A stretch of 64,000 nucleotides of DNA, taken from a virus. Shown one piece after another: positions 26,524 through 62,413 of the stretch. The notes under the pieces are model-generated. The model ran no database searches and was not told the DNA's origin. It was given only the letters and a program-made list of their open reading frames with translations. The stretch is taken from IMG/VR virus record IMGVR_UViG_3300045988_059906; one strand, given 5' to 3'. Made by a program: the position numbers and the translations under genes. Position 1 is the stretch's first letter. Every line of letters begins with the position of its first letter.

Positions 26524-26595
26524 TTGGGCTACCAGGACTCGAACCTGGACTCTCAGAACCAAAATCTGATGTGACTACCATTACACCATAGCCCA
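26524..26595 (-). tRNA. tRNA-Gln (TTG), copy 2
   Basis: U1:A72, acceptor TGGGCTA/TAGCCCA, D arm TGGTGTAATGGTA, loop TTTTGGT. This is the scaffold shared with the CTA suppressor. Confidence 0.75.
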
Positions 26596-38820: not shown

Positions 38821-39861
38821 AAAAAATGAACACTATCAAAAGACCTTCCTGTGCCACTCTCCTTTGAATTGTTTCACAACAATTACATAGTCTCTGGGCG
38901 TACTCATTATAGTCTCCAATAATACACAACAATAGTTCCCTACTCTGGACTTGAACCAGAATCTTCTCCTTTAGAGAGAGATATACTGACTTGTACTAGT
39001 AGGGAAATACTCCACTGCCTAAGCTCCCTATGGGAGCTGTAGGCTATCTAGAATAAGATGGAGAGTTATTTAGATAGTTTCCTATGCTATCTACGTTACT
39101 AACGTTCACTAAGAATATAGGTAGCTAATCCATATTCTTGCGACTGAGTTCGAGGTAGGAAATATACCCTTATGAGGTATCCTCTTATCAGCTAACCTTA
39201 TTTTAATCTAGCGGCTTATACTAGGCAACTTCTAAATAAATAAAATGCATAACTATAAGTGATATGCTTTGGTCGACTGGCATATCAGCAGTACTTCATA
39301 ATATTGCTATAAGTGACCAACCCTATAGCTCAATCCTCTTGTAATAGTGTTTAAGTTTGCGAATATACACATTACAATCGTAGCAGTTATTTTCGGATAT
39401 TGGGCTATCTGCGTAACCCCGCTTTTTGTTGCCTTTTTATGGGCTAATGTTAGAGTAAATAATCATTGTAGTATGAGTTATAAAACTCGTCCTACTGGCG
39501 ATTTTTTGAAAACTGGAAAAAGTCGGAAAATTGGCTGCCGACGTTCTGGACAATTATTCTCCTTACTCTCCATATTTTCACGTGAAACATACACGATTTT
39601 ACTAGAAATGATAGTCTTTCCTATCAGCCAGACATAAAACTAAAACTACTACAAAAGTTAACTCGGTTTTTGATTTTTTTTTGTTTTGTTGTTGATTTCT
39701 CCGTTGACCAATGTTCCAATGATGGAGTTCATATGGGCATTTTATTTTAACTCATAATACCTTAGAGCTGCACGTTTGACTTATTTTAAATCTCGTTGTG
39801 CGCTGAGATTGACTCTAAGATTCGGTCACACTCTCACTTATTTATACACGAGAGAGTCGTG

Positions 39862-40872: not shown

Positions 40873-41274
40873 ATGATTACAGACTTAGAAACATTACTAA
40901 ATTAGGACGAGTTTAAGAATCTCGTTGATGCAATTAATAAGAACTAGGAGTATTATCTATCAAGTAATGGTCTAACCATTAAAGCGGAATCTACAGATGA
41001 TTCTTTATTCTTATTAATATCTTATGAGAGATAGAAAGAGGAAAGCTGTCTAGCTAATGAAGAAGTAGGCAAATTCCAGAAATACTTAGAATCTTTAGAT
41101 GATGATTTATTTATAGATGTCTGCGAATATCTAGGAGAGTCCGAATTGAATAAAATTCAAGAATGTTTGGAAAGTGGAAAATTGGAATCAGTAAGAGCTG
41201 GAATTACTAAATTCAGAATGGCATTATCTAATGTGGTAACTATGAAAATAGAACAACTGAAAGCATATGTATGA
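40873..41274 (+). CDS. hypothetical protein, 3 in-frame TAG
   Basis: The frame from ATG (40873) to TGA (41272) is open except for three TAG codons. Confidence 0.45.
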
Positions 41275-41407
41275 ACAAATAGCTCAAATAAGAATACTCC
41301 TTGCTAATGTAAATGCAACCATGTAGGCTTTATTTCACGAAAACGAACAGCTAAGGAAAGAACTAGAGAAATTGGCAGCGGAGAATAAATCTCTAAAAGA
41401 GAAATAA
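41267..41407 (+). CDS. small protein, 1 in-frame TAG
   Basis: ATGTATGA overlaps the upstream stop. One TAG, ends with TAA. Confidence 0.3.
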
Positions 41408-41411
41408 ATAC

Positions 41412-41483
41412 TGCCCTATGGTGTAATGGTCAGCACAGATGACTCTAAATCATTTAGTCTGGGTTCGAATCCTAGTAGGGCAA
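41412..41483 (+). tRNA. amber suppressor tRNA (anticodon CTA), tRNA-Gln-derived
   Basis: TGCCCTA-TG-GTGT-AATGGTCA-GCAC-A-GATGA-CTCTAAA-TCATT-TAGT-CTGGG-TTCGAAT-CCTAG-TAGGGCA-A. U1:A72, and the D arm is near-identical to both tRNA-Gln(UUG) genes. The anticodon CTA sits at 41445-41447. Confidence 0.8.
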
Positions 41484-41500: not shown

Positions 41501-41728
41501 ATGATAAATTTAAATGAGAATTATGCTGTAACTCCAACAGGAGCTAAGACCCTTATTATTGAAGAGGGAGATGATTGGAATAAAGTTTGCGATAAGGTAG
41601 TTGGATGTAGATTTGATTACATATTTGTACCTCAAGAATTTGAGAATCAAGCCTGCTACTTTCTTCCACAAATAAGTATTCAAGGAAAGCAGATAGGTAA
41701 GATATGTACTTATAAAGTAGTGAAATGA
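41501..41728 (+). CDS. hypothetical protein
   Basis: ORF track 41426..41728, trimmed to the Met after the tRNA. Confidence 0.35.
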   Translation: MINLNENYAVTPTGAKTLIIEEGDDWNKVCDKVVGCRFDYIFVPQEFENQACYFLPQISIQGKQIGKICTYKVVK

Positions 41729-42039
41729 AACAGTGTGCAGTCGTATTGAATGGTAATGATGTTGTCAAAGTTTCTAATTTAAAAAGAAAGTATGACAAAA
41801 TAATGAGTAATCCCAATATGAAAATATTGGAGGAGTGTGATAAGGAAATGCTAGATGAGAAATACAACTACTGGAATAGAACATTAAATAGAAATATAGA
41901 AGAGGAGAAAAATGAGGAAGCAAAACTCCATCATTTTAGGAATCCAAAAACAGGTTGCACTATAGCAAGTATCTATCCAGATTTAGAGGAATGTAAATCA
42001 TATATAAAAGACTGGATGGATTATGTTAAACTTGACTGA
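41725..42039 (+). CDS. hypothetical protein
   Basis: 104-aa ORF. Confidence 0.35.
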   Translation: MKQCAVVLNGNDVVKVSNLKRKYDKIMSNPNMKILEECDKEMLDEKYNYWNRTLNRNIEEEKNEEAKLHHFRNPKTGCTIASIYPDLEECKSYIKDWMDYVKLD

Positions 42040-42207
42040 TAAATACAATGAACTAACTAAGCCAAATTTAAAAGAGTTATCTGAAACTATACTCCTAGCA
42101 GCAGAATCTTTAATTGAGATTGTTGCAGAAGAAGGAAAACAAAATGAACAATGGTTTCTAGATTACCTAGATGAATTAAATAGACTAAGTGTAATATACT
42201 AAAATAT

Positions 42208-42444
42208 ATGGATAAAGAATTTAAATTTGAAGTCTTTATTAACGGCCAACTAATAAATATGATAAAAGCTGGATATTTAGAAAGTACACTTAGAAGTGTT
42301 CCGGAGAATAAATCATTACTGATTGATATATGGAATGTAGTTGACAATTCAGTTAGAAATCTAATTAAAAATGGACTATATAAAGACACTACACTAGAAA
42401 AAGCAATAATTGATAATACATTTGAGGGATATGATAGACTTTAA
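42208..42444 (+). CDS. hypothetical protein
   Basis: 78-aa ORF. Confidence 0.35.
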   Translation: MDKEFKFEVFINGQLINMIKAGYLESTLRSVPENKSLLIDIWNVVDNSVRNLIKNGLYKDTTLEKAIIDNTFEGYDRL

Positions 42445-42646
42445 AAAGACATTGACAAACTTACATAATGAATTTCCAGAATTTGACTTGGATACATTAT
42501 TTAAAATAGTAGATGCTATAGTAGAAACTTCTACTCCTACAATAACCATCCCAAGTGGTATTAGATAGCCATCAGATAAACCTTGGTGGGAGGATGGTAT
42601 AAATAGAATCACTTGTACTTATGATACAAAGTATAATGTTAAATAA
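42431..42646 (+). CDS. small protein, 1 in-frame TAG
   Basis: ATG at 42431 through TAA at 42644, with one TAG. Confidence 0.3.
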
Positions 42647-42950
42647 AAATAGGCGAACCTAATCTCTAGGCTCACCTATTTTGTTATATAATATAGTACC
42701 AATCAGTTCTCTCCATGACTCCCTTTTCTCTAAGCTATTTATTATCTAAATGATAATCTCCGTTTCTGAAATTCAATTCCTTTTTAGAATAATCCCAATA
42801 AAAATATCCTCTCCATCCAGGAAGTAAGAGAGTACGACCTGTTGCCGCGTGTAAAGTTGCTTTGTTATAGTCCATGTTACTTTTTAAATATAAATAGTAA
42901 ATATAGATATATTCTTAATACAATCTCTTTAATGCACTTAATAATGTTTT

Positions 42951-43292
42951 TCATCGTTTCTTAGTTTTAATAAATCCATAAGTTCCCTTCTTTAATCTAG
43001 TAGTAGGAATCCATCCATTATCTAGAATAGACCTATGTCCACTCGGTTTATGTATCTTAGCCCCATCTTCGTGTTTCCATTTAGAAGCATTTCTAGCAAA
43101 ATTAGCTCGCTTCTTCTAAAGAGGGGTAGCGTTAGGATTGTTTAGTACATGCTTAGCGTGTTCTTGTACAGATTCTCCTGCTGCCTTGGCAGATGCTGTA
43201 AATTTGCCTCTGTTCTTCTCTTTAATGTGAATGCCCGACCCATTTTTGAAAATTGGACACCCAAATGTTGTAATTTTCTTACTGTTAGACAT
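42951..43292 (-). CDS. hypothetical protein, 1 in-frame TAG (minus strand)
   Basis: From ATG (43292) to TGA (42951), with one TAG between NATPL and KKRANF. Confidence 0.4.
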
Positions 43293-43406
43293 TTTTAATA
43301 TAATGTATTATTTATTGATTTGTATCTTACAAAGAATATTAATATACTTGAAAAGTATCAAATAAATATAGATAAATGTGATAAATGATTAAATGAATTA
43401 TGACTA

Positions 43407-44321
43407 ATGGACAAAAGTAAAATTACAAAACAAAATGGGAACATAGCTTTTGAGGAAGAAGCTCATATTTATTATGATGTTACAAAGCCAGAACAGAAGT
43501 TTATATCTGTAACGACTTTAATTCATTCTTTCACCCAACCATTTGATAAGGAGTTCTGGTCAGCATATAAAGCACTAGAGAAACTCTTACCTAAAGAAGA
43601 TTGGGCTATAGAAAAAAAGTCTTTGTTGAACACTAAGAAATTTGATAAAGTTCTACTTGAACTTCATAACATTACAGAAGACGAGTTTAATAAAGAGCAA
43701 CAAGCTATCTTAGATGCTTGGGATTTAGAGAATAGAAACTCATGCGAGAGGGGAACTAAAATCCATGCAGATTTGGAAAACTCTTTCTATAAAAAGAAAC
43801 AGAACATAGACCTTAGTAAATATCAAATAGGTGGCAAGTTCGAGTGTATAAAAGACCACAATGAATTAGACTTAGAGAATGGTGTATATCCTGAGTATTT
43901 AATATCTAGAGTATCGGATGATGGAAAGCTAAGAATAGCAGGACAGATTGACTTATTAGTTAAAAGAGGAAATAAGATAATTATAGGAGACTGGAAGACC
44001 AATAAGAAAATAGAAACTAAGAGTTTCTTCAATTCTAAAACCAAAACTTCTGTTAAGATGAAATATCCTCTAAATAATTTAGATGATGTTAATTACTGGC
44101 ACTATACTTTACAATTAAGTACTTATGCTTGGATGATTCAAAAGAAAAATCCAGAGTTTGAAATAGAGGATTTGGTTTTGGTACATTTCGACCATAATGA
44201 CAATATGACAGTATATCATTTGCCATATCTAAAAGATGAGGTTATAAAAATGCTAGCCTTCTATAAGAAGGAATCTATATTGGCAGAAAATAAAAGAAAA
44301 CGTCAACGTATTGAATATTAA
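43407..44321 (+). CDS. PD-(D/E)XK (RecB/Cas4-like) nuclease
   Basis: GQIDLL...IIGDWKT forms a D..D/ExK pattern, and the C-terminal QLSTY is a QxxxY motif. Confidence 0.45.
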   Translation: MDKSKITKQNGNIAFEEEAHIYYDVTKPEQKFISVTTLIHSFTQPFDKEFWSAYKALEKLLPKEDWAIEKKSLLNTKKFDKVLLELHNITEDEFNKEQQAILDAWDLENRNSCERGTKIHADLENSFYKKKQNIDLSKYQIGGKFECIKDHNELDLENGVYPEYLISRVSDDGKLRIAGQIDLLVKRGNKIIIGDWKTNKKIETKSFFNSKTKTSVKMKYPLNNLDDVNYWHYTLQLSTYAWMIQKKNPEFEIEDLVLVHFDHNDNMTVYHLPYLKDEVIKMLAFYKKESILAENKRKRQRIEY

Positions 44322-44323
44322 TT

Positions 44324-44539
44324 ATGACACTAGAGGAAATAGAAGAAAGATTTGAGATATGTAGACGCTGTCCAATATGTGACCAAGATAATGGATTATG
44401 TAATGGGCATTTGTATCTAAATCCAAAGAATAATGATATAAGTATAAGCCCTAAAGAAGGGTATATAAAGGGATGTGGATGTTTACTAGAGAAGAAGATT
44501 CCAAACGAAAAGAAACATTGTCCAGCAGGGAAATGGTAA
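44324..44539 (+). CDS. zinc-ribbon protein
   Basis: CRRCPIC and CGC cysteines. Confidence 0.35.
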   Translation: MTLEEIEERFEICRRCPICDQDNGLCNGHLYLNPKNNDISISPKEGYIKGCGCLLEKKIPNEKKHCPAGKW

Positions 44540-44859
44540 TCTATGGAACTCCTATATTATATAAACCAGATAAGCATTATATACTTACTGTCCAAAATAT
44601 AAATAGGGAAACAAAGGAGGAAGATATGATATGGAAATGGATTAAAGCAATATTTACTAAACCTTTAACAATATTGAAAAGTATATATTTCAATATATTC
44701 GGAATAAATCAAGATTTGACAACCAAAAGATTAAAAATTTGTGACGCTTGTTCCCATAAATTACAAACATCTGTTGGGGAAGTGTGCGATGAATGTGGTT
44801 GTATATTAGAGAATAAAACAAGAATTGAAGATGAACATTGTGATTTATGTAAATGGTAA
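44533..44859 (+). CDS. zinc-binding protein
   Basis: Trimmed to the internal Met. CDAC...CDEC...CDLC motifs. Confidence 0.35.
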   Translation: MVIYGTPILYKPDKHYILTVQNINRETKEEDMIWKWIKAIFTKPLTILKSIYFNIFGINQDLTTKRLKICDACSHKLQTSVGEVCDECGCILENKTRIEDEHCDLCKW

Positions 44860-44867
44860 AATGAATT

Positions 44868-45470
44868 ATGGAAACTTTAAGAACAGAATTAAACAGTAAC
44901 GAAAAACTAGCACTATCATTAACTGGAATGGAAGGTACGGGAGAACATTTTATTTTAAATGGAGAAGCTGCAGACCAAACATTATTAAGAGAAAAACAAG
45001 AGAAGTTTAATACCTCAGTAGATGAGTTAGAAGATAAATTCTCTAAACATAATCAGGCACTAGAGGATTACGCTAAATCATTATCTAACGATATGAATGG
45101 AGTTGAAATTATGCCGATGTATGGGTATGCATTAATTAAACCCTTTGAACAAAACCCATTCCAAAAAATAAAAACTACTAAAAGCGGTCTTATTACTGAT
45201 TTAGGTGGATTTACTCCTACTTATAAATCTAATGAGACTGGAGAAATTGAAGAAGAGCAACAATTTATTAAGGTAGGAACTGTGATAGAAGTAGGACATA
45301 AGTGTGAGTTCTTGAAGCCTGGAGATATTGTATTTTATACAATAGCTAGTGAATGTATGGTTCCATTCTATAAACTAGGATTTGTAGTAGTTAATGAGAA
45401 TAGAATCATGGCTGTAGTTAATGAGAAACTAACTGAAAGAAGAGACGAATTGAAGCATGGAAACAATTGA
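44868..45470 (+). CDS. hypothetical protein
   Basis: 200-aa ORF with no TAG. Confidence 0.4.
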   Translation: METLRTELNSNEKLALSLTGMEGTGEHFILNGEAADQTLLREKQEKFNTSVDELEDKFSKHNQALEDYAKSLSNDMNGVEIMPMYGYALIKPFEQNPFQKIKTTKSGLITDLGGFTPTYKSNETGEIEEEQQFIKVGTVIEVGHKCEFLKPGDIVFYTIASECMVPFYKLGFVVVNENRIMAVVNEKLTERRDELKHGNN

Positions 45471-45681
45471 TGAAAAAGTTTATTTTAAGCCTGGGGATTG
45501 TGTTACTTTACGGTAGTGTAAAGTAATGCACTCTCCAGTTATGCTTGTTCTAAGAAGAGAAGCAGCTTTATTTAAAGATAACCAAGGATTACGAGGACTA
45601 AGATGTAGATGGTTTACTGATTCTGGATTAATGCAGGAAGCAGTATTTAATACAAAGGATTTAATTAAAGTAGAAGAGTAA
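45457..45681 (+). CDS. small protein, 1 in-frame TAG
   Basis: ATG at 45457 through TAA at 45679, with one TAG. Confidence 0.3.
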
Positions 45682-46253
45682 TGGCTAATTAGGAAGAATT
45701 ACAGAAGGCATTCATGGCATACTTGATACAAGATGCCCAAGCACAAGGAATACAATTACAATCAGAGCAAGATTTATAGGCTTACGCTGAATAGCTTGGA
45801 GAAGATGGAATTAAAGCCAAGTATCAAGAATTTATGTAGAAGATGCAAGGCGGAGTTATGGCTAGACTTGGAGCTAAACTAGAATACTATAAAAAATTAA
45901 AAGGAGTATGCCCAGAAGGAGAGGAACTTGTTTATTTTAAACAGGGAGGAAGAATCTGCAAAGCTTGCCAAAAAGCATAGAAAGGAACTAAGGTTACTAA
46001 GAAAGCTAATGAAGTTGACAAGTTCAAAGCTGGAAGAGCTTAGTATAAAAAGGATATGAAATCTGCAAAGGATGAAGCATCTAGGGATTCTGTGTCCATT
46101 AATAAATATAATGACTAGGAGGTCATGGCAAATAGAGGACACAGGGGAAACTTTAAAAATGGAAAATGGGTTCCAGATAGAACAAAGTATGCTAAGAAGG
46201 ATGCTTGTGGTTCTAAAATGAAAGTAAGTAAATGCGGTTCTAAAATGAAATAA
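45681..46253 (+). CDS. Gln-rich protein, 8 in-frame TAG
   Basis: Reading TAG as Q gives MANQEELQKAF...IQLQSEQDLQAYAEQLGEDG, where TAG sits among CAA/CAG-encoded glutamines. Ends with TAA. Confidence 0.5.
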
Positions 46254-46289
46254 AAAGATTAAAGATGTTAATGTTAATGATTGATGAGT

Positions 46290-46850
46290 ATGAATGTATT
46301 TAATTATAACACTTTAACTAAATAGTTAGAAATAAATGAACCAGAGCTTCTTCTAGTTAAAGAGTTTAAGGCTTTGATACAGAGAGATAAATCTGTTGAC
46401 AAGGAACGAGTAACTAGAGAATTATCTTACATTTATCTAGCTATTGATTGGAAGAGTCCCTATAGCCAATATTCAGAACATGAAAGACATGATGAAGCTA
46501 TTAGTGACTCTGGACTATCTGAATCCGAATTTAATGACCCGTTATTCAGGGAAGCCTGTAGAAAATACCGAGCATTGTAGGATTCTAACAAATCAATAAA
46601 ACTTCTAGAAGCAGCTAAAAGAGCAGCTGACTAGTTTATTGATTATTTTGATACTATAGTAGATTTAAATGAACGTGATAATAATGGCAAACCCGTCTTT
46701 CAAGCTGAAAAGGTAATGAAAGAAATGGCTACTCTTCATAAAGTTCATGAAGAATTAGTAACACTAGAAGAGCAGGTTAAGAAAGAGCTTACAGAACAAT
46801 CTACTGTAAGAGGTGGAGCTACAGACGGCTTTGACCCAGGAGACTTTTAA
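46290..46850 (+). CDS. putative terminase small subunit or DNA-binding protein, 3 in-frame TAG
   Basis: Continuous frame from ATG (46290) to TAA (46848), immediately upstream of TerL. Confidence 0.35.
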
Positions 46851-46852
46851 TT

Positions 46853-49213
46853 ATGCCTAGAAAGAAAAAAATATTACCTGAAGAAATCTAGAATATAGTA
46901 GATTAGGTAAGAGAGAAAGAACAAAAAGAGGATGCCAAAGAAGCTAGAGAACTAGTATAGAAGATAAGAGAGGAAAGGGGCAAAAATGCTGATTATTGGG
47001 ATGTAAAGAGAGGAGATAAGATAGAGGTATTTGACCCTACTTTATCTTATGAAATAACTGGATATAGACCAATAGATGAAACACACGGTCTTGACTTCGA
47101 CCCAGATTGGTTTACTGAGACCAGAGAAGTGTATAGAAAAACTGGAAAGTATTGTCCATATCTAAAAGATAGTAAGAGATATAATGAGTTTTGGAAGGAA
47201 TAGTATAGAAGATGTAAATACGGAATGACTGTTAATGGTTATACAATTACTGGAGATAACTATTTCTTCCTAAACTTCTACTAGCTTCCTATTATTGATG
47301 ATAACAAGGCATCTGGAGAAGGAACAAGTAGTGACTTTCCTATATTTTTCGCATCTCATTATATGTTCTTTCATTATCTATAGATGGCTAGAGTTCTGCA
47401 TAAACACGCAGCTCTTATGAAAGCTCGTTCTATTGGATTCTCTGAAATAAATGCATCCTTATCTGCAAGAATGTATTCAGTAATCAGAAGAAGCAGAGTA
47501 ATGATTACTTGTTTTAATGATACCTTCCTTAAAGGTACTTTTAGTAAGTTTGATAATGCTTTAACATTCTTGAATACTTGTACAGGAGGAGGATTCTTCA
47601 AACTACGTTTGATTGACCAAGACTTAAGAAAGAAGTCTGGTAAACAGATTAAGGTAAACGGACAGTTTGAGGATGTTGGATTTAAATCAGAAGTAGTTGG
47701 AATAAATGGAGCTAAGGCATCTAATATTCGTGGAGACCGTGTTGACCTATTAATATATGATGAAGCGGGGTCTTGGCCCGGACTAGATACTGCTGTAGTG
47801 CAGGGACAAGAGCTTTGTGAAGTTCAGGGTAAACCTCGTGGAACAATGTTATTTGGAGGTACTGGTGGTGATATGGGTGCTCCATTAGCAGGTCTTAAGA
47901 AGATATATTACAATCCAAAAGCTTACAAAGTTCTTCCATTTAGACATAATTATACACAGGATGGGACTACTATTGAAAGTGGGTTCTTCATTCCATATTT
48001 TGTCTAGTCTCTAAATTCAGAATACATGGACCATAGAGGTGTATGTAATACAGTAGAATATAAAAAGTATCTATAGGAAGAGCGTGACAATTTATTAGCA
48101 GTTCCAGACGACTATCTAAAGAAGTGTGCCGAACGATGTTGGAATGCAGAAGAAGCATTTAATCTTGAAGGTGTTAACAAGTTCAACAAGATTCTTATTG
48201 CGGACCAGTTAGCTAATATAAGACTTAAGAAAATAGGACCAAGACCAGAATCTGGATACATAGACTATTTCTATAAAAATAATAAACACACCTAGGATAA
48301 TATAGATGGTTTTAAATGGATTCCTAATATTAACGGAAAAGTAAAAATACTTGAACATCCTGTATGGTCTGATTTGTATAAAGAGTAGATGGATAAACTT
48401 AGATAGGAAGCCGAGGAAAGGGGAGAAGAATTTGAATCTCCAGCGTACAAAGAAATGCATGATTTATATGTTGCAGGAATAGACGGTATTGATATAGGAG
48501 CTAGTCAAACTTCAAAAGAAACAAGAGATCCTTCTGATTTCTGTATAACTATAAAAAGAAGAGCATTTGGTCTAAACGAACCGTAGTATGTTGCTATGTA
48601 TAAAGACAGACCTAATGACATTAGAGAAGCCTATAAAATAGCTATGTGTTTAGCTAGATACTATAATTGTAGAATAAACATAGAAGCTACCCGTGTAGGT
48701 ATGATTACCTGGGCTAGAGAAAAGGGTTGTTTAAACTACTTTATGAAAAGACCTAGAGCTACTCTAACAGACGTCAAGAATGGAACTACTAAATAGTACG
48801 GAACACCCGCTACCAAAACTATTATAGAACAACATACTGATTTGACAGCAGCCTTTATTGAGGATTTCTGTCATACTATATGGTTTGAAGAAATGTTAGA
48901 CCAATTTACTGGATATAATGATGAGAATAAAGGTAAATTCGATATTGTAGCAGCTGTGGGAATGACAGAATTGGCAGACTAGGAATTGTCAGGAAGATAG
49001 CCAGTGCTTGTTGAAAAAGAAGTTGAACAATTCCAAGATTATGGTTATTATTACGACGAGAGAGGAATCAAAAGATTTGGGGTTATACCAACTTCTAAGA
49101 CTTTTGAAACTAACATACAAAAAAATGAATACGATGACCCATACAGAATTGAAACAAGTGATCCTAGGTTATATGAGAGACTTGTACAAAATGGAATACG
49201 TAGGTGGGCTTGA
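46853..49213 (+). CDS. terminase large subunit (TerL), with in-frame TAG
   Basis: About 787 codons in frame 2, with multiple in-frame TAG and a TGA stop. Contains the Walker B-like LLIYDEAGS and the nuclease-domain YVAGIDGIDIG. Confidence 0.65.
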
Positions 49214-49371
49214 AATTCAGAACCTAGATCCAGTTGGTTATAAGGTATCGTTTAACTTTGATAGGTCAGAGATGCCTTTAGTCATTATAGCTGATTTACC
49301 TGATGAAGAATTTCTCCCATTTATAAAGGAAGAATTAAGAAGTAGGAAGTTACAAAGAGTTAAATACTATA

Positions 49372-51582
49372 ATGCAACTAAACTTCCTCCAGAACAGCAT
49401 AATTTATGTTATGAAAGAAAAAGAACTGATAGACAAGACGAACGAGGCTATTGCGGAGCTTGTATATGATAAGTACGAATTATAGAAAGCCTATAATTAC
49501 TATAACGGAAAGAGAGACCCAGAATAGTTTCGTTACCTGGAAGAAAACTTTGGAATAGGTAGTCCTACTTCTGTAGAATTTACACCATTACTAAAAAAGC
49601 ACGTAGATGCTCTAGTAGGGGAATATCTAGGAACCCCTATCCTTCCGAAGATTTCTTGTAAGGATTCAGATACCATTAGTAATATCACCAGAGAAAAATA
49701 GTTAGAAATAACTAAAGGAATAGTTAAATTTCTTAGAGACCATTTAAGTAATTCTATTCTGAAATTTATCGACGGAAAAGATATTACAGATAAAGCCGTG
49801 AAGACTTAGTTAGATAAAATTATTCAAGACATTGATTAGTCTTTTATTTCTCAATATGAGATAGCTGCATAGAATATTATTCATTATATCATGCAGTCTA
49901 GAGAAACCGATTTAATAACTAAACTCCGATAGTTACTTACAGATTTATTAATTACTGGCTATACATTTTTCAGAGTAAAATCATCATCTTCTGGAACTAA
50001 CATAGAAATAGAAGTTCTGAATCCTTTAAATACTTTCGTAGATAGGAATCCAGAATCTCCATATGTTAGAAATTCGTATAGAGTTGTGGTTAGAAAATGG
50101 ATGAGTAAAAGCTAGATATTAGCTAAATACGGAAAAGAAATCTCTAGAGAAGATTTGAAAAGACTAAAAGATGAATGGAGAGCTGATGATTCAGCTGCAG
50201 TTTATAGAAGAGTTTATGGTGACACTTGTACTATAGTAAATGAAGACTAGAATCATGAAACTATTCCTGGATACCCAGATAATGAATATAGTGCTCATAG
50301 ATTTTAGTTAATTCCTGTTTATGATGTAGAGTGGATAGAAACTGATGACGATTTTGTAATGTAGAGATACAATACCATTAGAATTGGAGAAGAAATATAT
50401 ATTCTGAGAGGTCTAGACAAGACTGTTATGAGGTCGAAAGATAATCCTAATTTCTGCTCTTTGTCTGTAAATGGAGTATATTTCTTAAATCGCTCTCAAC
50501 AACCGTACTCTCTGATATTAAAGTGTGCACATCTACAGGATAGATATGACTTGTTAAATTATTATAGGGATAACCTGATAGCTAACAGCGGTACTGCTGG
50601 AGTAATCATGGATATGTCATTGCTTCCTACTAACCTAGGCGTAAAATGGCCAGAAAGAGTGTAGAAATGGTTAGCATACAAGAAGGGTGGTATCATGTGG
50701 ATTGATTCTACTTAGGAAGGGAGAAATGACGGAGCGCAAGCACCTAACTAGATATACAATGGATTTGATGATACCTTAAAAGCTTAGGCTGTATAGGCTA
50801 TTGAATTAGCAATTCAATCAGTAGAACAAACTACATCATCTATAACTGGAGTATTTAGAGAAAGATTAAATGGAATAGAAACTCACGATGCTGTAACTAA
50901 TATTAAGCAAGGTGTTACTAACTCTTACATAGTAACCAAGCATTATTTCTAGTAGATGGACCTAATCACTTGTGAGATATTATTGGATAGTCTAAACTAG
51001 GCTAAAATAACATATAAGAAAGGATTAACTGGAACTATTATACTTGGGGATAAATATCAACAGATATTCACCGCACTTCCTGAGTATTTTACTGTTACTG
51101 ACTACGATATTCATATTACTGCTAGTTCAGAAGTGATGGAAGATCTATAGACTATAAAAGCAATCATTCCAGAGTTCGTAAAAAGTCAACAGATGGACCC
51201 AGATATTATTTTTGAGGCTCTTACATCTAAGAGTCTGACAGACCTTAAATATAAGGTTAAGAAAGCTGTTCAAGTTCGCAAAGAGGAAAATAATCAGCTT
51301 CAGCAACTACAAGAAAAATTAGAAGAAACTTCTCAATAGGCTCAGTAGTTATAGCAAGAATTATAGAAAGCTCAGCAAAAGATTGAAAGCTTAGATGAAT
51401 AGAGACTAGGATTAGAATAGTAGAAGATGCAGTTAGAATATAAAGTTAACTGGCTTAAAGCTCAGTCTGATTTTACATATAAAGATAGACAAATGGATAT
51501 AGAAGAAAAGAGAACTGAAATAGAGTTAGCTTAGCTTCATGATGGAAATCCATATAATGACAAAATAAGACAAATACATTAA
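49372..51582 (+). CDS. putative portal protein, with in-frame TAG
   Basis: Frame 1 is open from ATG (49372 or 49411) to TAA (51580), with many TAG. It lies directly downstream of TerL. Boundaries are approximate. Confidence 0.4.
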
Positions 51583-51583
51583 T

Positions 51584-52318
51584 ATGGCAACTGGAACAAT
51601 TGTATATAATAAGGATTAGCAATAGATTTATCCTATTTCAGATGGTTCAGTAATTATTAGTAATGCTTCTGGTTCCAAATCAAATGTGGAAGAAGATTTA
51701 AAGAAACTATTTAAATAGGTGTCAGATCTTTCTGGTTCTAGTGAAGCGGTAAATAATATTATTATTAAGATTCATTACTTACCTGCTGATACTGCTGAAG
51801 AATCTGAGATAAAATTATCTACTAAATAGTGGACTGATACTTTTGAACTTCCAACTGAAGAGAATCCATACATCTGGAAAAGAACTAAATTTACTTTCTA
51901 GGGAGCTGACGAATCTCAGGGAACTACTATTTATGAGATTGTGGCAAGCGATGTTTCTACTATTATCTAGAATATATACACTAGAACTGAGGGAATAACT
52001 CCAGTTATTGAGTATAAGCAGAAAACAGATGAGGATGGAAATCCTCTATATGTAGATTCAGAAGGACATGAAACAACGACTGTTACTCCAACTAAGGCAT
52101 ATGACTATAATTATTATTGGAATGGGAAACCAGCTGGTAAATTAAATAGTCTACCACCGACTCCTGAAGGTTAGTCATATACATGGACAGACTATCCTCA
52201 AGATATTAGTTTATCATTTAGTTCAGTTTTTATGTCTAGACGTATACGACAAGAAGGTAAGTGGAAACCATTTTCTACTCCTGCTCAATATGGTCAATGG
52301 CCTACTACTGAGTCTTAA
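51584..52318 (+). CDS. structural protein, with in-frame TAG
   Basis: Frame 2 from ATG (51584) to TAA (52316), with several TAG. Confidence 0.35.
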
Positions 52319-52511
52319 TTATTATAATATGGAATTTAGTATTGATATACATACCCAGATTAACGGGGAAATAACTATTGAAGACTTTTCAAAGGAATAT
52401 GGATAGTATATTGATGAAGATTTAGAGGTAGTAACTTCCTATGATTCTTATAAGTATAGTGAAAGTGCTACCCTAAATACTATCATAAAAGTTAGTATAG
52501 GAGATGCTACT

Positions 52512-53057
52512 TTGATAGACGTACTTCTCAATGACCATACAGAGGATTTAGACTCTTGTACATTTAAGGTGAAAGAAGATGGATATTATGTAGTAGACCA
52601 CATAATTCTTCCTAATATGAAATGGTATGAAAATTCATCTGATGAATACAAGGAGTATTATGAAACTATCTATATAACTGATGGAGAGAAACTATATAAA
52701 GAAGTAGATGGAGAGCTAGAGGAATGTACTGTAAAAGAAATCCTTGAGAGAAATATAGAAGGAACTACTATCAAAAAATGTAAGGTAGATGTATTCTTTA
52801 CAGGAAATCTGCAATAGTGTTATATTAACTACTGTAAGAAACTCTTTGACTCTTTATTAAATAAGTGTCTAACTAGAGAACATGATGCAGATATATTTGC
52901 AAGAGATTTTATCTGGATGACACTTAATATTATAGATTATTTAATAGGCTTTAAACAATTCATGGAAGCTGAAAGATTGTTAGCAATGTTCCGCACTTGC
53001 GGTGGATTCTGTGACAATCACCATGAACATAAACGTATAGGTTGTGGATGCTCTTAA
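52512..53057 (+). CDS. zinc-binding protein, 1 in-frame TAG
   Basis: ORF 52512..52817 continues through a TAG to TAA at 53055. C-terminal CGGFCDNHHEHKRIGCGC. Confidence 0.35.
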
Positions 53058-53212
53058 AAGAAAGGCTATTAAAAGGTATGAGGATTTCCTTAAAAGGGTT
53101 AGAAAGGGATATAGACCAGATTATTAGGATATTTTGAATCTAATTTGTTTTATTAACCTACCCATAAAATTAGATAATCACGAATTTATTAAATAGCAAT
53201 TATTGAATCATA

Positions 53213-54802
53213 ATGATACAGCCTATTTACACTTCGGTAAGCAATGCTGATATAAAGCCTTGTGGAAAGAAAGGACATTTAATAAAAAGTGAACCTATAC
53301 CTCTCCTAAGAAACAACTATCTTGGAGAATATAGAACTGAATTAGAAAGAGCTAAGGTTAGAAAGAATCTAGGTATTGCTGATGAGTAGAGTCTTCTTTG
53401 GGGAAATATAGAAGGAACTATAGAAGCCTAGAAAGATTTAGTATAGTACATAGAATAGAAATGGACTTATACTAGTGATGTTGCAGAGAATATCAATACT
53501 GTAAAAGATGCCTTAGATTATGCTTTATTCTTTATAAGTTAGTACGAAGCTAATACAGAAGAAATAGAGGAAATAAAAGTTGATATAAGTAATATCAGAA
53601 CTTCTATTACTGTACTTAAGGAAGAACTTGAAGAAGAAATTGAATCTAACAGAACTGGCATAAACAATCTTTCTGAGAAAATAACCTAGATTAATGAGGC
53701 AATAGAGGATATTAATGAGTCTATCAAAAATATAGATGTTGACAAAAACATCTAGAATTGGATAACTAATAGTCTAAGAAACTCCAAAACCATAGAAATA
53801 AAGGATGATAATACTCTAGAAGTAATTCTATCTTAGTAGGAGGATAATGCAATACATCTGATTCAGTAGGAAATTCCTCCAGTAGAGGAGGAAGGAGAAC
53901 CTTCCACAGTAGTTCTACCTGGAATATATGTAAAAGACCTGGAACCATCTCTAACAGAGGTAAAGGAAGAAGTTAAGGGAGTATAGGAAGCTTAGAAGAA
54001 CACTGATTCTAAAGTAGATTCTAATACTGAGAATATCACAAATATATAGACAAGTTTAGAAACTATAGCTACTTATCAAACTGAACTTCCAGATGATACT
54101 ACTTCTACTGTTATTCAAGGAACTACAGTTGAAAAATTGAAAGGAAAGCCGTTTAATGAGATTATAGACACTCTATTATTTCCTACTGTTGTTAGAGATT
54201 TGGTTTATCCTTAGTTGTATTATAGCTTCACCTCTTAGATTGTGGAGGTAGGATCCGCTTTACTTACCCCTACTTTAACATTTATAAAAAATGATGCTGG
54301 AGAGGAAACTGGTAGAGAAGAAACTATTACCTATAATGATTCTCCTGTAGAATCTGAAACATATGATTCTATCGGTGTTTATGTGCATTCTGGTACCGTA
54401 AATTATGCTGCTGGAGAATATCTTATTAACAACAAGGGAGAGGTTACAGACAAGAGGGTGGAGGCTGGTTCAATATCAACTACAGCATAGGTGACTGCTA
54501 CCTACCCTTGGTATTCTGGTAATACAGATAGTTTAATCAAATAGAGTCTTGTTCCATTTGGACAATCTTCTGGAATTATTACATTTTCATTAAGTGGAAA
54601 GGCTATTATAAAATTACCTGGAAGTAATACTTAGCTAAATTCATTTACAGTAGATGGAGGACTAGGATACCTAAATGTTGATTTAAGTGGCTGGGAAACT
54701 TCTACTGAATAGATAAATGGATTTCCTTATAAAGTATGGACTAAGAAGGATACTTATTCTTCAGCATTGCCTCATCAAATTAACTTTACTTTATCACAAT
54801 AA
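53213..54802 (+). CDS. tail/structural protein, with in-frame TAG
   Basis: Frame 2 from ATG (53213) to TAA (54800, overlapping the next ATG as TAATG), with many TAG. Contains coiled-coil EEIEEIKVD... Confidence 0.4.
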
Positions 54803-57800: not shown

Positions 57801-58707
57801 CAATACTACAGAAGCATTTAGAGGTGGTGGAAATAGAGCACAATTCGATGAGTATCTAACTACTGAACTTGATACCAAAGATGCTTTTAGAAGCGATTTA
57901 GGAAAACCTAGAACTAATGTTTCTAGAGCTAATATGAGAACTTATGCTACAAATGCAGGTTCTGAATTATTATGCTATGAATATTATAAATGGATATTCT
58001 ACTGGAACTATGTAATAGAATATGCTAACTTTAACTCCCAGGCTGCCTATAATGCCGAACTTACTTCTGATGGTTATCGTCAAGGAGGACTTGGTCCTGG
58101 AGTTACAGACTGGAGTAACTCTGCTACAAGTTGGTCTGGATATAATGGAACTTATCCTATTACTCCATGTGGTTATTGTAATGATATTGGTAACTTCACT
58201 GGAATCAAAGATTTAGTTATTCCAGAGTGTACTGCAACAAACGAAACAGATACAGTAGCGACTAAGACATTTAAAGTTCCAAGATGGAGAGGTTTTGATA
58301 ATCCATTTGGAGATATTTGGACAAACCTAGATGGAGTAGTTATTCAAAGAACTGCGGCAAATGAAATCAGTAGTGTGTATACTACCACAAACAAGGAAGA
58401 GTTTACTGACGTAATTGGCAGCAAGACCATAGCAGGATACGAGGTAGCGCAAGATGGATACATTAAAGAGTTTGACTTAGGAGAGACAGCAGAGATTATA
58501 CCATCTTCTTGTACTGGAGCCTCAGCTACAACTTATATATGTGACTACCACTCTTGCAATGCTACCTCTACAGAGCTTCGCACGCTGCTGGTGGGCGGCA
58601 GCGCGGGTTATGGCGGCCATGCGGGTCTCGGCTCTTTCCTTTCTGGCAATGGCGTCGGCAGTGCCACTTCCCATGTCGGGTTTAGGACTCTAAATAGAGT
58701 ATCTTAA
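54802..58707 (+). CDS. DGR target 1: large tail fiber/receptor-binding protein with C-terminal variable region, with in-frame TAG
   Basis: Frame 1 from ATG (54802) through ORF 57532..58707 to a stop after VR1. Many in-frame TAG. The C-terminus ...LLVGGSAGYGGHAGLGSFLSGNGVGSATSHVGFR is encoded by a GC-rich patch. Confidence 0.45.
58585..58683 (+). repeat. DGR variable repeat VR1
   Basis: 99 nt at the 3' end of the target gene. It aligns gap-free with the template repeat, and all of roughly 24 mismatches fall on template adenines. Confidence 0.8.
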
Positions 58708-58724
58708 GATAAAATATAGAAAAT

Positions 58725-58742
58725 CGATTTAGATATAAATCG
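58725..58742 (+). other. hairpin downstream of VR1 (candidate DGR homing-enhancing stem-loop)
   Basis: cgattta-gata-taaatcg is a perfect 7-bp stem about 40 nt after VR1. Confidence 0.35.
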
Positions 58743-58783
58743 TAGGATATTACTTCTAAAAACCGTTGATTGGCAAAAAAGAA

Positions 58784-60605: not shown

Positions 60606-60652
60606 TTTAAAATTGTTAAGTATTGTACTTTACAATATTAAAAATCTAATAA

Positions 60653-62407: not shown

Positions 62408-62413
62408 TAAAAA

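What the first reader, a model, noticed from the sequence alone, without database searches (positions are those of the whole stretch)
41412..41483. tRNA-Gln-derived amber suppressor tRNA(CUA) at the head of the TAG-containing module, plus a second CUA tRNA of different ancestry
The plus-strand tRNA has anticodon loop CUCUAAA. Its U1:A72 pair and its D arm (UAUGGUGUAAUGGU.AGCAC) are shared with the two tRNA-Gln(UUG) genes at 160-230 and 26524-26595, implying a Gln-to-amber anticodon change (UUG or CUG to CUA). It sits directly after two small TAG-containing ORFs and before the plus-strand gene block. A second tRNA at 10956-11027 on the minus strand has loop CCCUAAA (CUA at positions 34-36) with C33 and a tRNA-Arg(UCU)-like D arm. 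It could be a second suppressor of another identity or a decoy.
Basis: seen in the sequence. Interest (0 to 1): 0.8.

Follow-up and report, generated by a model that had tools for sequence, protein, structure and literature searches.

The report
Phage amber-suppressor glutamine tRNA genes
This gut phage carries its own tRNAs that read the stop codon TAG as glutamine, so its TAG-filled late structural genes can be translated; this trick is already well documented in crAss-like phages.

Summary
Window 41412-41483 (+) is a high-scoring tRNA (Rfam 66.3 bits) with CUA at positions 34-36, a U1:A72 pair and a tRNA-Gln-type D arm. It lies between small conserved ORFs at the head of the plus-strand block. 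That block (PD-(D/E)XK nuclease, terminase, portal, tail proteins, DGR-type reverse transcriptase) is readable only if TAG is a sense codon. ORF coverage rises from 31% to 90%, and there are 142 in-frame TAGs.

Among 38 related terminase genes, TAG alternates mainly with CAA/CAG, so TAG means Gln. The same tRNA sits upstream of the terminase gene in 42 of 47 related contigs, with compensatory stem changes.

The second CUA tRNA (10956-11027, -) is real and not Gln-like. It is weakly Arg(UCU)-like and has C33 and an A31-C39 mismatch. An allele with U33 in relatives still has CUA. What it is charged with is unknown.

Its slot carries CUA, UUA or CUG (Gln) in near-identical relatives.

All of this matches TAG-to-Gln ("code 15") recoding with suppressor tRNAs, described for large, probably Zeta-group, crAss-like phages. 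It is a well-supported new member of a known kind, of modest interest.

The parts
41412..41483 (+). tRNA(CUA), Gln-type body: the amber suppressor of the finding
   Evidence: ARAGORN. Rfam 66.3 bits. Covariation among orthologues: 99.4% of cells paired, 10 pairs changed on both sides. Gln-type. No encoded CCA (3' flank is CGC).
40873..41274 (+). First ORF of the plus-strand block (133 aa, 3 in-frame TAG), function unknown
   Evidence: Conserved in relatives, with TAG/Gln exchange; TAG-free homologue in more distant relatives. No PHROG hit.
41267..41407 (+). Second small ORF (46 aa, 1 in-frame TAG); ends 4 nt before the tRNA
   Evidence: Reciprocal TAG<->Gln swaps at two positions among relatives.
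41501..45470 (+). TAG-poor stretch of the plus-strand block, including a PD-(D/E)XK-type exonuclease at 43407-44321; its first ORF starts 17 nt after the tRNA
45681..64000 (+). TAG-dense late/structural genes: terminase large subunit 46853-49213 (15 TAG), portal 49372-51582 (28), tail proteins, DGR-type reverse transcriptase 59291-60295 (6)
   Evidence: TAG alternates with CAA/CAG in relatives.
38936..39005 (-). Third tRNA(CUA): U1:A72, A73, short D loop without GG. Not mentioned in the finding
   Evidence: The orthologous slot carries CUA, UUA or CUG in relatives; the body is 94% identical to the CUG (Gln) version in L039.
10956..11027 (-). Second tRNA(CUA): G1:C72, A73, C33, A31-C39 mismatch, and a D loop (GCGAUA) and T loop (UUUGAAU) that would allow an A19:U56 tertiary pair. 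Weakly Arg(UCU)-like body
   Evidence: Two alleles in public data, both with CUA, with compensatory changes at 3:70 and 49:65. Arg is the best profile.
10874..10952 (-). Non-canonical tRNA(CAU)-like element 3 nt downstream of the second CUA tRNA
   Evidence: tRNA model 20.8 bits, below threshold. Read by hand: acceptor UGCGGAG/CUCCGCA, loop CUCAUAA. Carries a long insertion in the anticodon loop in 5 related loci.
10818..10873 (-). [quoted passage not shown]
   Evidence: RF02682 38.1 bits (gathering score 44), E 6e-6 in the local search. Hand fold: P1 7 bp, P2 8 bp, P3 3 bp, P1.1 GG/CC, J4/2 GCUAA. Compensatory changes in P2 and P3 in one relative.
160..230 (-). tRNA-Gln(UUG), resident sense isoacceptor used for comparison
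26524..26595 (-). tRNA-Gln(UUG), second resident sense isoacceptor

Best explanation
The window comes from a gut phage of about 185 kb that is distantly crAss-like, probably of the Zeta group. It writes its late structural genes in genetic code 15, where TAG means glutamine.

The tRNA at 41412-41483 is a glutamine-type tRNA whose anticodon is CUA. Its loop (A36-A37-A38) suits codons that start with U. It sits inside the plus-strand late block, 4 nt after one ORF and 17 nt before the next.

The inferred mechanism runs as follows. The tRNA is transcribed together with the genes that need it and is cut out by host RNase P and 3'-end processing enzymes. It receives CCA from the host, is charged with glutamine by the host glutaminyl-tRNA synthetase, and outcompetes release factor 1 at UAG. 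In these late genes TAG is the majority glutamine codon (142 TAG against 118 CAA+CAG).

Two more CUA tRNAs lie in the minus-strand tRNA array, where most genes avoid TAG or use it as a stop. They probably supply suppressor before and alongside late transcription.

Shown here: the tRNA structure, the anticodon, the Gln-type body, TAG used as a Gln codon, and conserved synteny. Inferred: co-transcription, processing, charging by GlnRS, timing, and competition with RF1.
For: - tRNA call and anticodon register.
- Covariation across orthologues and the resident Gln tRNAs: 99.4% of cells paired, 10 of 21 pairs changed on both sides, 0 of 500 shuffles as good.
- Gln-type body: nearest neighbours, profile scores, and a D-arm word found only in tRNA-Gln(UUG) among the GTDB tRNA hits, which share U1:A72 and A73.
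- Recoding: plus-strand ORF coverage is 31% under the standard code, 90% with TAG as sense and 34% with TGA as sense. There are 142 in-frame TAG in 12 late genes and none in 24 minus-strand genes. The late genes are terminase, portal, tail proteins and a reverse transcriptase.
- TAG means Gln: 27 of 41 variable TAG columns in 38 distinct terminase genes have CAA/CAG as the alternative, and 27 of 36 variable Gln columns have TAG. The figures for other residues are 6/39 for Glu, 7/54 for Lys, 1/23 for Tyr and 0/4 for Trp. The small upstream ORFs show the same reciprocal swaps.
- Synteny: a same-strand CUA tRNA lies 5-9 kb upstream of the terminase gene in 42 of 47 related loci with enough flank, and is sequence-identical in most.
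- No terminator-like site between the flanking ORFs and the tRNA.
- Literature: suppressor tRNAs and late-gene TAG/TGA recoding in crAss-like phages, including the 145-192 kb Zeta group, and a traced Gln UUG->UUA conversion (PMC7886860). TAG aligns with Gln and suppressor tRNAs are widespread (bioRxiv 10.1101/2021.08.26.457843). Proteomic validation of code 15 in crAss-like phages (PMC9523058, abstract).
Against: - There are no expression, processing or aminoacylation data.
- Several E. coli GlnRS identity elements are absent: C3:G70 instead of G3:C70, A73 instead of G73, A36 and A38. However, the phage's own tRNA-Gln(UUG) genes and the Bacteroidales tRNA-Gln genes found here also have A73.
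- Two TAG-containing ORFs lie upstream of the tRNA, and about 4 kb of TAG-poor genes separate it from the TAG-dense genes. It is therefore not a simple gate placed directly in front of the recoded genes.
- Two other CUA tRNAs could carry much of the load.
- No release factor or synthetase gene was found among the larger ORFs of the window. How RF1 is overcome is open.
- TAG as a sense codon is not strictly confined to the plus strand. A GIY-YIG endonuclease gene (6 TAG) and a 396-aa ORF (7 TAG) lie on the minus strand.
Confidence: 0.85

Rival explanations
1. The 41412 tRNA inserts an amino acid other than glutamine at UAG: pyrrolysine (ARAGORN's label), or Lys, Trp or Tyr.
For: ARAGORN prints 'tRNA-Pyl' for any CUA anticodon. 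Lys, Glu and Arg codons are the next most common alternatives at TAG columns. Published isotype predictions for phage suppressor tRNAs include minorities of Trp, Ile and Tyr (PMC10879173).
Against: - The body is Gln-type.
- TAG exchanges overwhelmingly with CAA/CAG, and only 1/23 with Tyr and 0/4 with Trp columns.
- Lys, Glu and Arg are also the usual replacement partners of Gln itself.
- The tRNA has none of the tRNA-Pyl hallmarks as I recall them (3-nt variable loop, 6-bp anticodon stem, a single base between acceptor and D stems). It has a standard D loop with GG and a standard T loop.
Confidence: 0.04
2. The plus-strand tRNA is accessory. Decoding of phage TAG codons is done mainly by the two minus-strand CUA tRNAs, and/or the main role of the suppressors is to sabotage the host by read-through of host TAG stops.
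For: - Two TAG-bearing ORFs precede the plus-strand tRNA, so suppression must be available independently of it.
- Two further CUA tRNAs sit in the tRNA array.
- The anti-host idea has been proposed for crAss-like phages, some of which carry suppressor tRNAs without recoding (PMC7886860; PMC12386605).
Against: - The plus-strand tRNA is the most conserved of the three. It is present in 42 of 47 relatives, including distant ones that lack a minus-strand CUA tRNA within 10 kb.
- The minus-strand slot varies in relatives (CUA, UUA, CUG, and one odd loop).
- It has the highest model score and a canonical loop.
- TAG makes up 2.6% of late codons, which argues for a dedicated supply.
Confidence: 0.08
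3. The second CUA tRNA (10956-11027) is a working amber suppressor built on a non-Gln, Arg(UCU)-like body. Because synthetases that read U35 accept many CUA tRNAs, it is probably charged with Gln or Lys.
For: - Good tRNA score, 56.8 bits.
- Only two alleles in the viral and metagenome scans. They differ at loop positions 31-33 but both keep CUA-A-A, and one has canonical U33. Compensatory changes at 3:70 and 49:65.
- D loop GCGAUA with T loop UUUGAAU fits a covarying A19:U56 tertiary pair. The same pairing occurs in an Arg(UCU) tRNA of a relative.
- Arg is the best profile, with no hit to the Gln profile.
- It sits in a processing module with a theta-type ribozyme, a context reported for suppressor tRNAs (PMC10879173).
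Against: - C33 in the window allele and the A31-C39 (or C-C) mismatch leave 9 unpaired bases. This would weaken the U-turn and makes the decoding register less certain.
- ArgRS normally needs C35 (from memory of E. coli identity rules), so the charging identity is unknown.
- The D-arm word also occurs in Gln(CUG), Asn(GUU) and Gly(GCC) tRNAs of unrelated viral contigs, so it does not diagnose ancestry.
- There is no sign in the codon alignments of a second amino acid at TAG.
Confidence: 0.55
4. The second CUA tRNA is a decaying or non-decoding gene: a decoy, a processing scaffold for the neighbouring tRNA-like element and ribozyme, or a pseudogene.
For: C33, the non-standard 31-39 pair and the lack of GG in the D loop are all departures from a canonical elongator tRNA.
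Against: The sequence is identical in 10 of 14 metagenome hits and in all 7 closely related viral loci that span the site. The second allele keeps every stem through compensatory changes and keeps CUA.
Confidence: 0.2

Closest known systems
Suppressor tRNA(CUA) of TAG->Gln (code 15) recoded crAss-like phages, especially the 145-192 kb Zeta group (Yutin et al. 2021, PMC7886860; Zeta-group paper 2025, PMC12386605; Borges et al., bioRxiv 10.1101/2021.08.26.457843; Peters et al. 2022, PMC9523058)
   Same: Gut phage with a distantly crAss-like terminase. Relatives are 180-195 kb with many tRNAs and a DGR-type reverse transcriptase. TAG is a sense codon mostly in late genes, TAG aligns with Gln, and the phage encodes its own CUA tRNA.
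   Different: Here there are three CUA tRNA genes of three different bodies in one 64-kb window, and one of them is embedded in the late block itself. I did not find either detail spelled out in the passages I read. Zeta membership was inferred, not tested against named Zeta genomes.
E. coli supE (glnV44) and phage T4 tRNA-Gln-derived suppressors (from memory)
   Same: A glutamine tRNA body whose anticodon reads UAG and which is still charged with Gln, showing that GlnRS tolerates A36.
   Different: Those are single-base laboratory mutants of a sense tRNA. The phage tRNA is an old, conserved gene. It is only about 70% identical to the resident Gln(UUG) genes, and loop positions 32, 37 and 38 have changed as well.
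Gln(UUG)->Sup(UUA) point conversion traced in alpha-group crAss-like phages (Yutin et al. 2021)
   Same: The slot of the third tRNA (38936-39005) carries CUA, UUA or CUG in near-identical relatives. These are single-base switches between Gln and stop-reading anticodons on one tRNA body. The UUA-carrying relatives do not recode TAA.
   Different: The tRNA body, clade and slot are different. Here the switching is seen in a phage that is already fully TAG-recoded.
Theta (minimal HDV-like) ribozymes next to phage tRNAs, 20% of them suppressor tRNAs (Kienbeck et al. 2024, PMC10879173)
   Same: A 56-nt HDV-like ribozyme lies in the tRNA array of a code-15 phage, with its cleavage site exactly at a tRNA-like 3' end.
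   Different: The ribozyme abuts a non-canonical tRNA(CAU)-like element, not a CUA tRNA. The CUA tRNA lies one gene upstream. The other two CUA tRNAs have no ribozyme downstream.
'Code change module' of Jade phages: suppressor tRNA + TrpRS + RF1 upstream of the lysis cassette (Borges et al.)
   Same: A suppressor tRNA placed upstream of, and on the same strand as, the recoded late genes.
   Different: This is TAG->Gln rather than TGA->Trp. No synthetase or release factor was found among the larger ORFs of the window. The ORFs around the tRNA themselves contain TAG.

Membership tests
tRNA (Rfam RF00005) | Covariance-model score above the gathering score (29 bits) over the full model | tested here: met
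   66.3 bits (41412-41483), 56.8 bits (10956-11027), 54.9 bits (38936-39005), each matching model positions 1-71.
tRNA (Rfam RF00005) | Cloverleaf maintained by compensatory changes in orthologues | tested here: met
   For 41412: 99.4% of cells paired, 10 pairs changed on both sides, 0 of 500 shuffles as good, slid controls 40-52% paired. For 10956: two compensatory pairs between the two known alleles.
Amber suppressor tRNA | CUA at anticodon positions 34-36 | tested here: met
   ARAGORN and the covariance-model alignments agree for all three genes. In 10956-11027 the loop is non-canonical (C33, unpaired 31-39).
Amber suppressor tRNA | Read-through of UAG in vivo | not testable with these tools
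   Indirect only. Essential genes carry 15-28 in-frame TAG each, so some suppressor must act.
tRNA-Gln lineage | U1:A72 and a Gln-type D arm; nearest relatives are tRNA-Gln when the anticodon is masked | tested here: met
   For 41412. For 38936-39005: U1:A72 and 94% identity to a CUG (Gln) version in the same slot of L039, but no match to the general Gln profile. For 10956-11027: not met (G1:C72, no hit to the Gln profile).
Substrate of GlnRS (E. coli identity set, from memory: U1:A72, G2:C71, G3:C70, G73, G10, U35, G36, A37, U38) | Presence of the identity nucleotides | tested here: inconclusive
   41412 has U1:A72, G2:C71, G10, U35 and A37. It lacks G3:C70 (it has C3:G70), G73 (A73), G36 (A36) and U38 (A38). 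The phage's own and the Bacteroidales tRNA-Gln(UUG) genes also have A73, so the E. coli rules may not carry over. Charging was not tested.
Genetic code 15 (TAG = Gln) recoded phage | Coding density recovers when TAG, and only TAG, is read as sense | tested here: met
   Plus-strand block: 31% under the standard code, 90% with TAG as sense, 34% with TGA as sense, 43% with TAA as sense.
Genetic code 15 (TAG = Gln) recoded phage | In-frame TAG aligns with Gln in homologues | tested here: met
   At the codon level, independent of any annotation: 27 of 41 variable TAG columns have CAA/CAG. Distant standard-code terminases were too divergent at these positions to add anything.
Genetic code 15 (TAG = Gln) recoded phage | Recoding confined to late genes, with the standard code elsewhere | tested here: met
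   Mostly met. There is no in-frame TAG in 24 minus-strand genes, and 8 of 52 minus-strand ORFs end at TAG; the three largest of these have back-up stops 2-9 codons later. Exceptions: a GIY-YIG endonuclease gene (6 TAG) and a 396-aa ORF (7 TAG) on the minus strand.
Zeta-group crAss-like phages | Terminase within the crAss-like clade; genome of 145-192 kb | tested here: inconclusive
   The terminase matches phrog_6681 (E 1e-61) and Crassvirales terminases at 26-29% identity. Relatives lie on contigs of 160-196 kb. No tree was built and no named Zeta genome was compared.
tRNA-Pyl | Pyl-type architecture and a pyl gene set | tested here: not met
   The D and T loops and the 4-nt variable loop are standard in 41412. 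There are no pyl-related Pfam hits among the 20 largest minus-strand ORFs. TAG exchanges with Gln codons.
Theta-ribozyme-associated suppressor tRNA (Kienbeck et al. 2024) | HDV-like ribozyme cleavage site within 5 nt of the tRNA 3' end | tested here: not met
   There is no HDV-like hit downstream of 41412 or 38936. The one ribozyme (10818-10873) abuts the tRNA(CAU)-like element, 83 nt downstream of the 10956-11027 tRNA.

The most novel reading that the evidence does not exclude
The three CUA tRNAs are not redundant copies but a layered system.
- A canonical Gln-type suppressor is hard-wired into the late block, so each late transcript brings its own decoder (feed-forward).
- A second slot flips between CUA, UUA and CUG within one species-level clade. 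This would be a live record of sense/stop anticodon switching on a single tRNA body.
- An Arg(UCU)-like tRNA may have acquired CUA by a one-base shift of the UCUAA motif in a 9-nt unpaired loop with C33. It may insert a different residue, act conditionally, or serve in regulation, and it is processed with a theta-type ribozyme.
Probability: 0.15. Interest if true: 0.6.

Novelty: new member of a known kind. Interest (0 to 1): 0.3.

Why it matters
Annotators must read this genome with two codes, or the terminase, portal and tail genes fall apart into fragments. The locus is a clean, well-conserved example for testing how a phage switches a standard-code Bacteroidales cell to TAG = Gln. It offers one canonical Gln-type suppressor inside the late block and two non-canonical CUA tRNAs in the tRNA array, one of them next to a self-cleaving ribozyme. 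The variable anticodon (CUA, UUA or CUG) in one slot among near-identical phages gives natural material for studying how stop-codon reassignment arises and reverts. None of this changes the established picture of code-15 phages.

Tried and rejected
- **Megablast against annotated phages.** A search of 41000-49300 found no match. The clade is not in that collection, so no curated annotation could be used.
- **Distant standard-code terminases** (cr109_1, cr10_1, Azobacteroides phage, MT835470). They are too divergent at the TAG positions to tell the amino acid. I replaced this with a codon-level comparison among close relatives.
- **Promoter scans.** Neither the sigma-70 consensus (13 found, 15 expected) nor the Bacteroidetes-type TTTG...TAnnTTTG pattern (2 found, 3 expected) was informative. 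No promoter is claimed.
- **Nucleotide after in-frame TAG.** It does not differ notably from that after other codons.
- **Sense-anticodon orthologue of the 10956-11027 tRNA.** One viral and one metagenome scan found only two CUA alleles.
- **The D-arm word of 10956-11027 as an ancestry marker.** It also occurs in Gln(CUG), Asn(GUU) and Gly(GCC) tRNAs of unrelated contigs, so I dropped it.
- **My first isotype-profile run.** It was partly circular, because the training tRNAs had been fetched with the query's own words. I repeated it without them.
- **The GTDB scan pattern.** It inadvertently required T at position 34. It therefore tested only U34 tRNAs and could not find bacterial CUA or CUG copies.
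- **A home-made HDV-like descriptor.** It gave 15 loose hits besides the one convincing ribozyme, and I discarded them.
- **TAA recoding in relatives with the UUA allele.** Tested and rejected.
- **A fourth CUA tRNA type** seen in three relatives is absent from the window.
Full report

ARAGORN finds 43 tRNA genes in the window. Forty-two are on the minus strand between 1 and 39 kb, and one is on the plus strand at 41412-41484 with anticodon CUA. Rfam's tRNA model matches 41412-41483 at 66.3 bits against a gathering score of 29. Its alignment places C32-U33-C34-U35-A36-A37-A38 in the anticodon loop.

The acceptor stem starts with U1:A72 and the discriminator is A73. The D arm UGGUGUAAUGGUCAGCAC is nearly the same as in the two tRNA-Gln(UUG) genes at 160-230 and 26524-26595.

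The second tRNA named in the finding, 10956-11027 (-), is also confirmed at 56.8 bits. It has loop C32-C33-C34-U35-A36-A37-A38, and the model flags a non-standard A31-C39 pair.

The finding omits a third CUA tRNA at 38936-39005 (-). It scores 54.9 bits and has U1:A72, A73, loop CUCUAAA and a short D loop without GG.

**2. What surrounds it?**

The window switches coding strand and GC skew near 40 kb.

- *Coding density.* Under the standard code, stop-to-stop ORFs of at least 100 aa cover 31% of the plus strand of 41.4-64 kb. Reading TAG as sense raises this to 90%. Reading TGA as sense gives 34%, and TAA as sense gives 43%.
- *Gene content.* The restored genes are a terminase large subunit (46853-49213, 15 in-frame TAG), a portal protein (49372-51582, 28 TAG), tail proteins and a reverse transcriptase of the diversity-generating type (59291-60295, 6 TAG).
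- *Codon counts.* Twelve late genes hold 142 in-frame TAG against 83 CAA and 35 CAG. Twenty-four minus-strand genes hold no TAG at all.
- *Stops in the minus-strand block.* By a greedy ORF set, 34 ORFs end at TAA, 10 at TGA and 8 at TAG. The TAG-terminated ones include three large genes with back-up stops 2-9 codons later. TAG therefore behaves as a stop there.
- *Exceptions.* A GIY-YIG homing endonuclease gene has 6 in-frame TAG (Pfam E 6e-13), and a 396-aa ORF at 36265-37455 has 7.

The tRNA is not the first element of the plus-strand block. Two small ORFs precede it: 40873-41274 (3 TAG) and 41267-41407 (1 TAG, ending 4 nt before the tRNA). The next ORF starts 17 nt after the tRNA. Then come about 4 kb of TAG-poor genes, including a PD-(D/E)XK-type exonuclease. 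Dense TAG use begins at 45.7 kb. No terminator-like site separates the tRNA from its neighbours.

**3. Which amino acid does TAG stand for?**

The terminase has thousands of homologues. The closest lie on contigs of 160-196 kb, and 52 related loci were fetched from IMG/VR.

I aligned 38 distinct terminase genes codon by codon, so that no annotator's choice of code could bias the result. Of 41 variable columns that contain TAG, 27 have CAA or CAG as the alternative. Of 36 variable Gln columns, 27 have TAG. The corresponding figures are 6/39 for Glu, 7/54 for Lys, 5/41 for Arg, 1/23 for Tyr and 0/4 for Trp.

The two small ORFs upstream of the tRNA show reciprocal TAG/Gln swaps among relatives. 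In more distant relatives the first ORF is TAG-free, so both look like real genes. Distant standard-code terminases were too divergent at these positions to add anything. TAG is therefore a glutamine codon in this phage.

**4. Is the tRNA Gln-derived and functional?**

*Conservation.* A same-strand CUA tRNA lies 5-9 kb upstream of the terminase gene in 42 of 47 related loci that have at least 7 kb of upstream sequence. Most copies are identical to the window's. In relatives with 66-73% terminase identity, the acceptor, anticodon and T stems differ by compensatory changes. U1, the D arm and the CUCUAA part of the loop are kept.

*Covariation.* On an alignment of six distinct orthologues plus the two resident Gln(UUG) genes, 99.4% of cells pair. 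Ten of 21 pairs show changes on both sides. No shuffle out of 500 does as well, and slid controls pair at 40-52%.

*Ancestry.*
- With the anticodon masked, the three nearest of 266 distinct tRNAs are all Gln(UUG), at 0.72, 0.71 and 0.67. Other isotypes reach at most 0.65.
- A rough isotype profile gives Gln 34.2 bits against 24.7 for the next isotype.
- A Gln profile built from the resident genes and Bacteroidales genes gives 52.3 bits. This is partly circular, because those genes were fetched with its D arm.
- The 21-nt D-arm word hit 11 places in GTDB representative genomes. Ten of them are tRNA genes, and all ten are tRNA-Gln(UUG). Most are in Bacteroidales assemblies, with U1:A72 and A73. 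That pattern required U34, so the test covers only U34 tRNAs.

*Age.* The tRNA is about 70% identical to the resident UUG genes and differs from them at loop positions 32, 37 and 38. It is therefore an old, adapted suppressor rather than a fresh point mutant. From general knowledge, the A36-A37-A38 arrangement shared by all three CUA tRNAs is the context in which A37 is hypermodified for codons starting with U.

**5. The other two CUA tRNAs**

*38936-39005.* Related phages carry one of four versions in this slot: CUA in most, UUA in nine loci, CUG (Gln) in L039, and an irregular loop in L023. The CUG version is 94% identical to the window's gene, and its spacing to the plus-strand tRNA matches that in L004, L021 and L022. 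A body that can carry a Gln anticodon in one phage and CUA in its near-twin is most simply a glutamine acceptor. The relatives with the UUA allele gain nothing from reading TAA as sense (94-96% coverage with TAG alone, the same as in CUA-allele controls), so TAA is still a stop there.

*10956-11027.* Its body is not Gln-like. It has G1:C72 and gives no hit to the Gln profile. Among the clade's own tRNAs it scores best with Arg(UCU): 26.6 bits, and 38.0 bits for the second allele. However, that D-arm word also occurs in Gln, Asn and Gly tRNAs of unrelated contigs, so it does not diagnose ancestry.

Viral and metagenome scans found only two alleles. One has the unpaired stretch A-CCCUAAA-C, as in the window. 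The other has C-UUCUAAA-C. They differ by compensatory changes at 3:70 and 49:65, and both keep CUA. The second allele has the canonical U33.

The D loop GCGAUA together with the T loop UUUGAAU would allow an A19:U56 pair in place of G19:C56. An Arg(UCU) tRNA of a relative has the same combination.

Conservation argues for a working tRNA that presents CUA. C33 and the unpaired 31-39 positions argue for caution. What it is charged with cannot be told from sequence.

**6. Mechanism**

Shown here: three CUA tRNA genes, a Gln-type body for at least one and probably two of them, TAG used as the majority Gln codon of the late genes, and conserved placement of one suppressor inside the late block.

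Inferred: the plus-strand tRNA is co-transcribed with its neighbours and released by RNase P and 3'-end processing. CCA is added after transcription, since none of the three genes encodes it. Host GlnRS charges the tRNA. Suppressor supply from the early tRNA array plus the late block overcomes release factor 1.

No release factor or synthetase gene appears among the 20 largest minus-strand ORFs. The rest of the genome could not be read.

**7. Comparison with what is known**

Yutin et al. 2021 described crAss-like phages, including the 145-192 kb Zeta group. They reported many tRNAs, suppressor tRNAs and read-through of UAG or UGA mostly in late genes, and they traced a Gln UUG-to-UUA conversion. 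Borges et al. showed that TAG aligns with Gln, that suppressor tRNAs are common in recoded phages, and that a suppressor can sit upstream of recoded lysis genes. The 2025 Zeta-group paper lists amber-recoded, DGR-bearing genomes of 176-189 kb with CTA suppressors. Peters et al. confirmed code 15 by proteomics (abstract).

The terminase here matches Crassvirales terminases at 26-29% identity and a crAss-type PHROG. This fits that group, but I did not test membership against named Zeta genomes.

Kienbeck et al. 2024 reported minimal HDV-like 'theta' ribozymes abutting phage tRNAs, often suppressors. The window has one such ribozyme at 10818-10873 (-). It scores 38.1 bits on RF02682, below the gathering score of 44. 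A clean hand fold gives P1 of 7 bp, P2 of 8 bp, P3 of 3 bp, P1.1 GG/CC and J4/2 GCUAA, and one relative shows compensatory changes in P2 and P3. It abuts a non-canonical tRNA(CAU)-like element that lies 3 nt after the second CUA tRNA, not the CUA tRNA itself.

**8. Verdict**

The finding is accurate and its interpretation is supported. It is a clear instance of a known system, so its novelty is limited to detail:
- three CUA tRNAs of three different bodies;
- one of them embedded in the late block and conserved across the clade;
- one slot that flips between CUA, UUA and CUG;
- one Arg-like CUA tRNA with an irregular loop, next to a ribozyme module.

Interest is 0.3.

Noticed in passing
window 38936-39005 (-); L001-L047: A third CUA tRNA was not listed in the finding. 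In near-identical relatives the same slot carries CUA, UUA (9 loci), CUG (L039) or an irregular loop (L023). Phages with the UUA allele still use TAA as a stop.
   Followed up: partly
window 10818-10873 (-): A 56-nt minimal HDV-like (theta-type) ribozyme scores below Rfam's gathering score (38.1 against 44 bits) but folds cleanly by hand. One relative has compensatory changes in P2 and P3. Two relatives lack the ribozyme.
   Followed up: partly
window 10874-10952 (-): A non-canonical tRNA(CAU)-like element (U1:A72, A73, 14-nt D loop, loop CUCAUAA) is missed by ARAGORN and scores 20.8 bits on the tRNA model. It lies 3 nt after a CUA tRNA and directly before the ribozyme. In 5 related loci its anticodon loop carries a long insertion, possibly an intron.
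   Followed up: partly
window 16960-17556 (-): A tmRNA-like RNA scores 33.8 bits on RF00023 (gathering score 47), with a 229-nt insertion. It has a G3-U70-type acceptor and a possible tag reading frame AEIAPVRMAA-stop. ARAGORN does not call it.
   Followed up: partly
window 39060-39233 (-), 38493-38566 (-), 37517-37585 (-), 15335-15432 (-): A RAGATH-14 RNA lies 54 nt upstream of the third CUA tRNA. Two pistol ribozymes flank the small ORFs just downstream. A RAGATH-34 RNA lies further away. Their relation to tRNA processing is unknown.
   Followed up: no
window 246-1361 (-): This is an adenylosuccinate synthetase homologue (Pfam E 3e-34, far below the NCBIfam PurA cut-offs). It could be a PurZ-type enzyme of phages with modified adenine. 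The gene ends at TAG with a back-up TAA 9 codons later.
   Followed up: partly
window 33800-34759 (-): This is a distant RlmN/Cfr-like radical SAM protein (NCBIfam 40 bits against a cut-off of 290; best PDB hits are RlmN at E 4e-5). It lies next to a tRNA cluster. From memory, RlmN methylates A37 of several tRNAs including tRNA-Gln, so this could be a tRNA-modifying enzyme relevant to the suppressors.
   Followed up: partly
window ~20588-21223 (-) and 36265-37455 (-): Two minus-strand genes use TAG as a sense codon, even though the rest of that block does not: a GIY-YIG homing endonuclease gene (6 TAG) and a 396-aa ORF of unknown function (7 TAG).
   Followed up: partly
L057 2561-2635, L061 2328-2402, L064 1687-1760: Three close relatives carry a further, different CUA tRNA (GAACCAG..., loop AUCUAGA with G37). 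It is absent from the window.
   Followed up: partly
window 1-39005 (-): The tRNA array is unusually large: 42 ARAGORN calls plus one Rfam-only call (19447-19519) in 39 kb. It contains duplicated isoacceptors and several oddly long genes, for example 'Cys' 21243-21328 next to the homing endonuclease gene.
   Followed up: no
window 39380-39860 and 40555-40873: Two non-coding stretches lie at the point where the coding strand and the cumulative GC skew turn. This may be the replication origin and/or divergent promoters.
   Followed up: no
L039 10001-13525, L047 10001-13526, P0003: Some relatives have a terminase gene lengthened by about 1.2 kb. P0003 carries Hint/intein and homing-endonuclease domains. 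This fits the intein-rich Zeta group.
   Followed up: no
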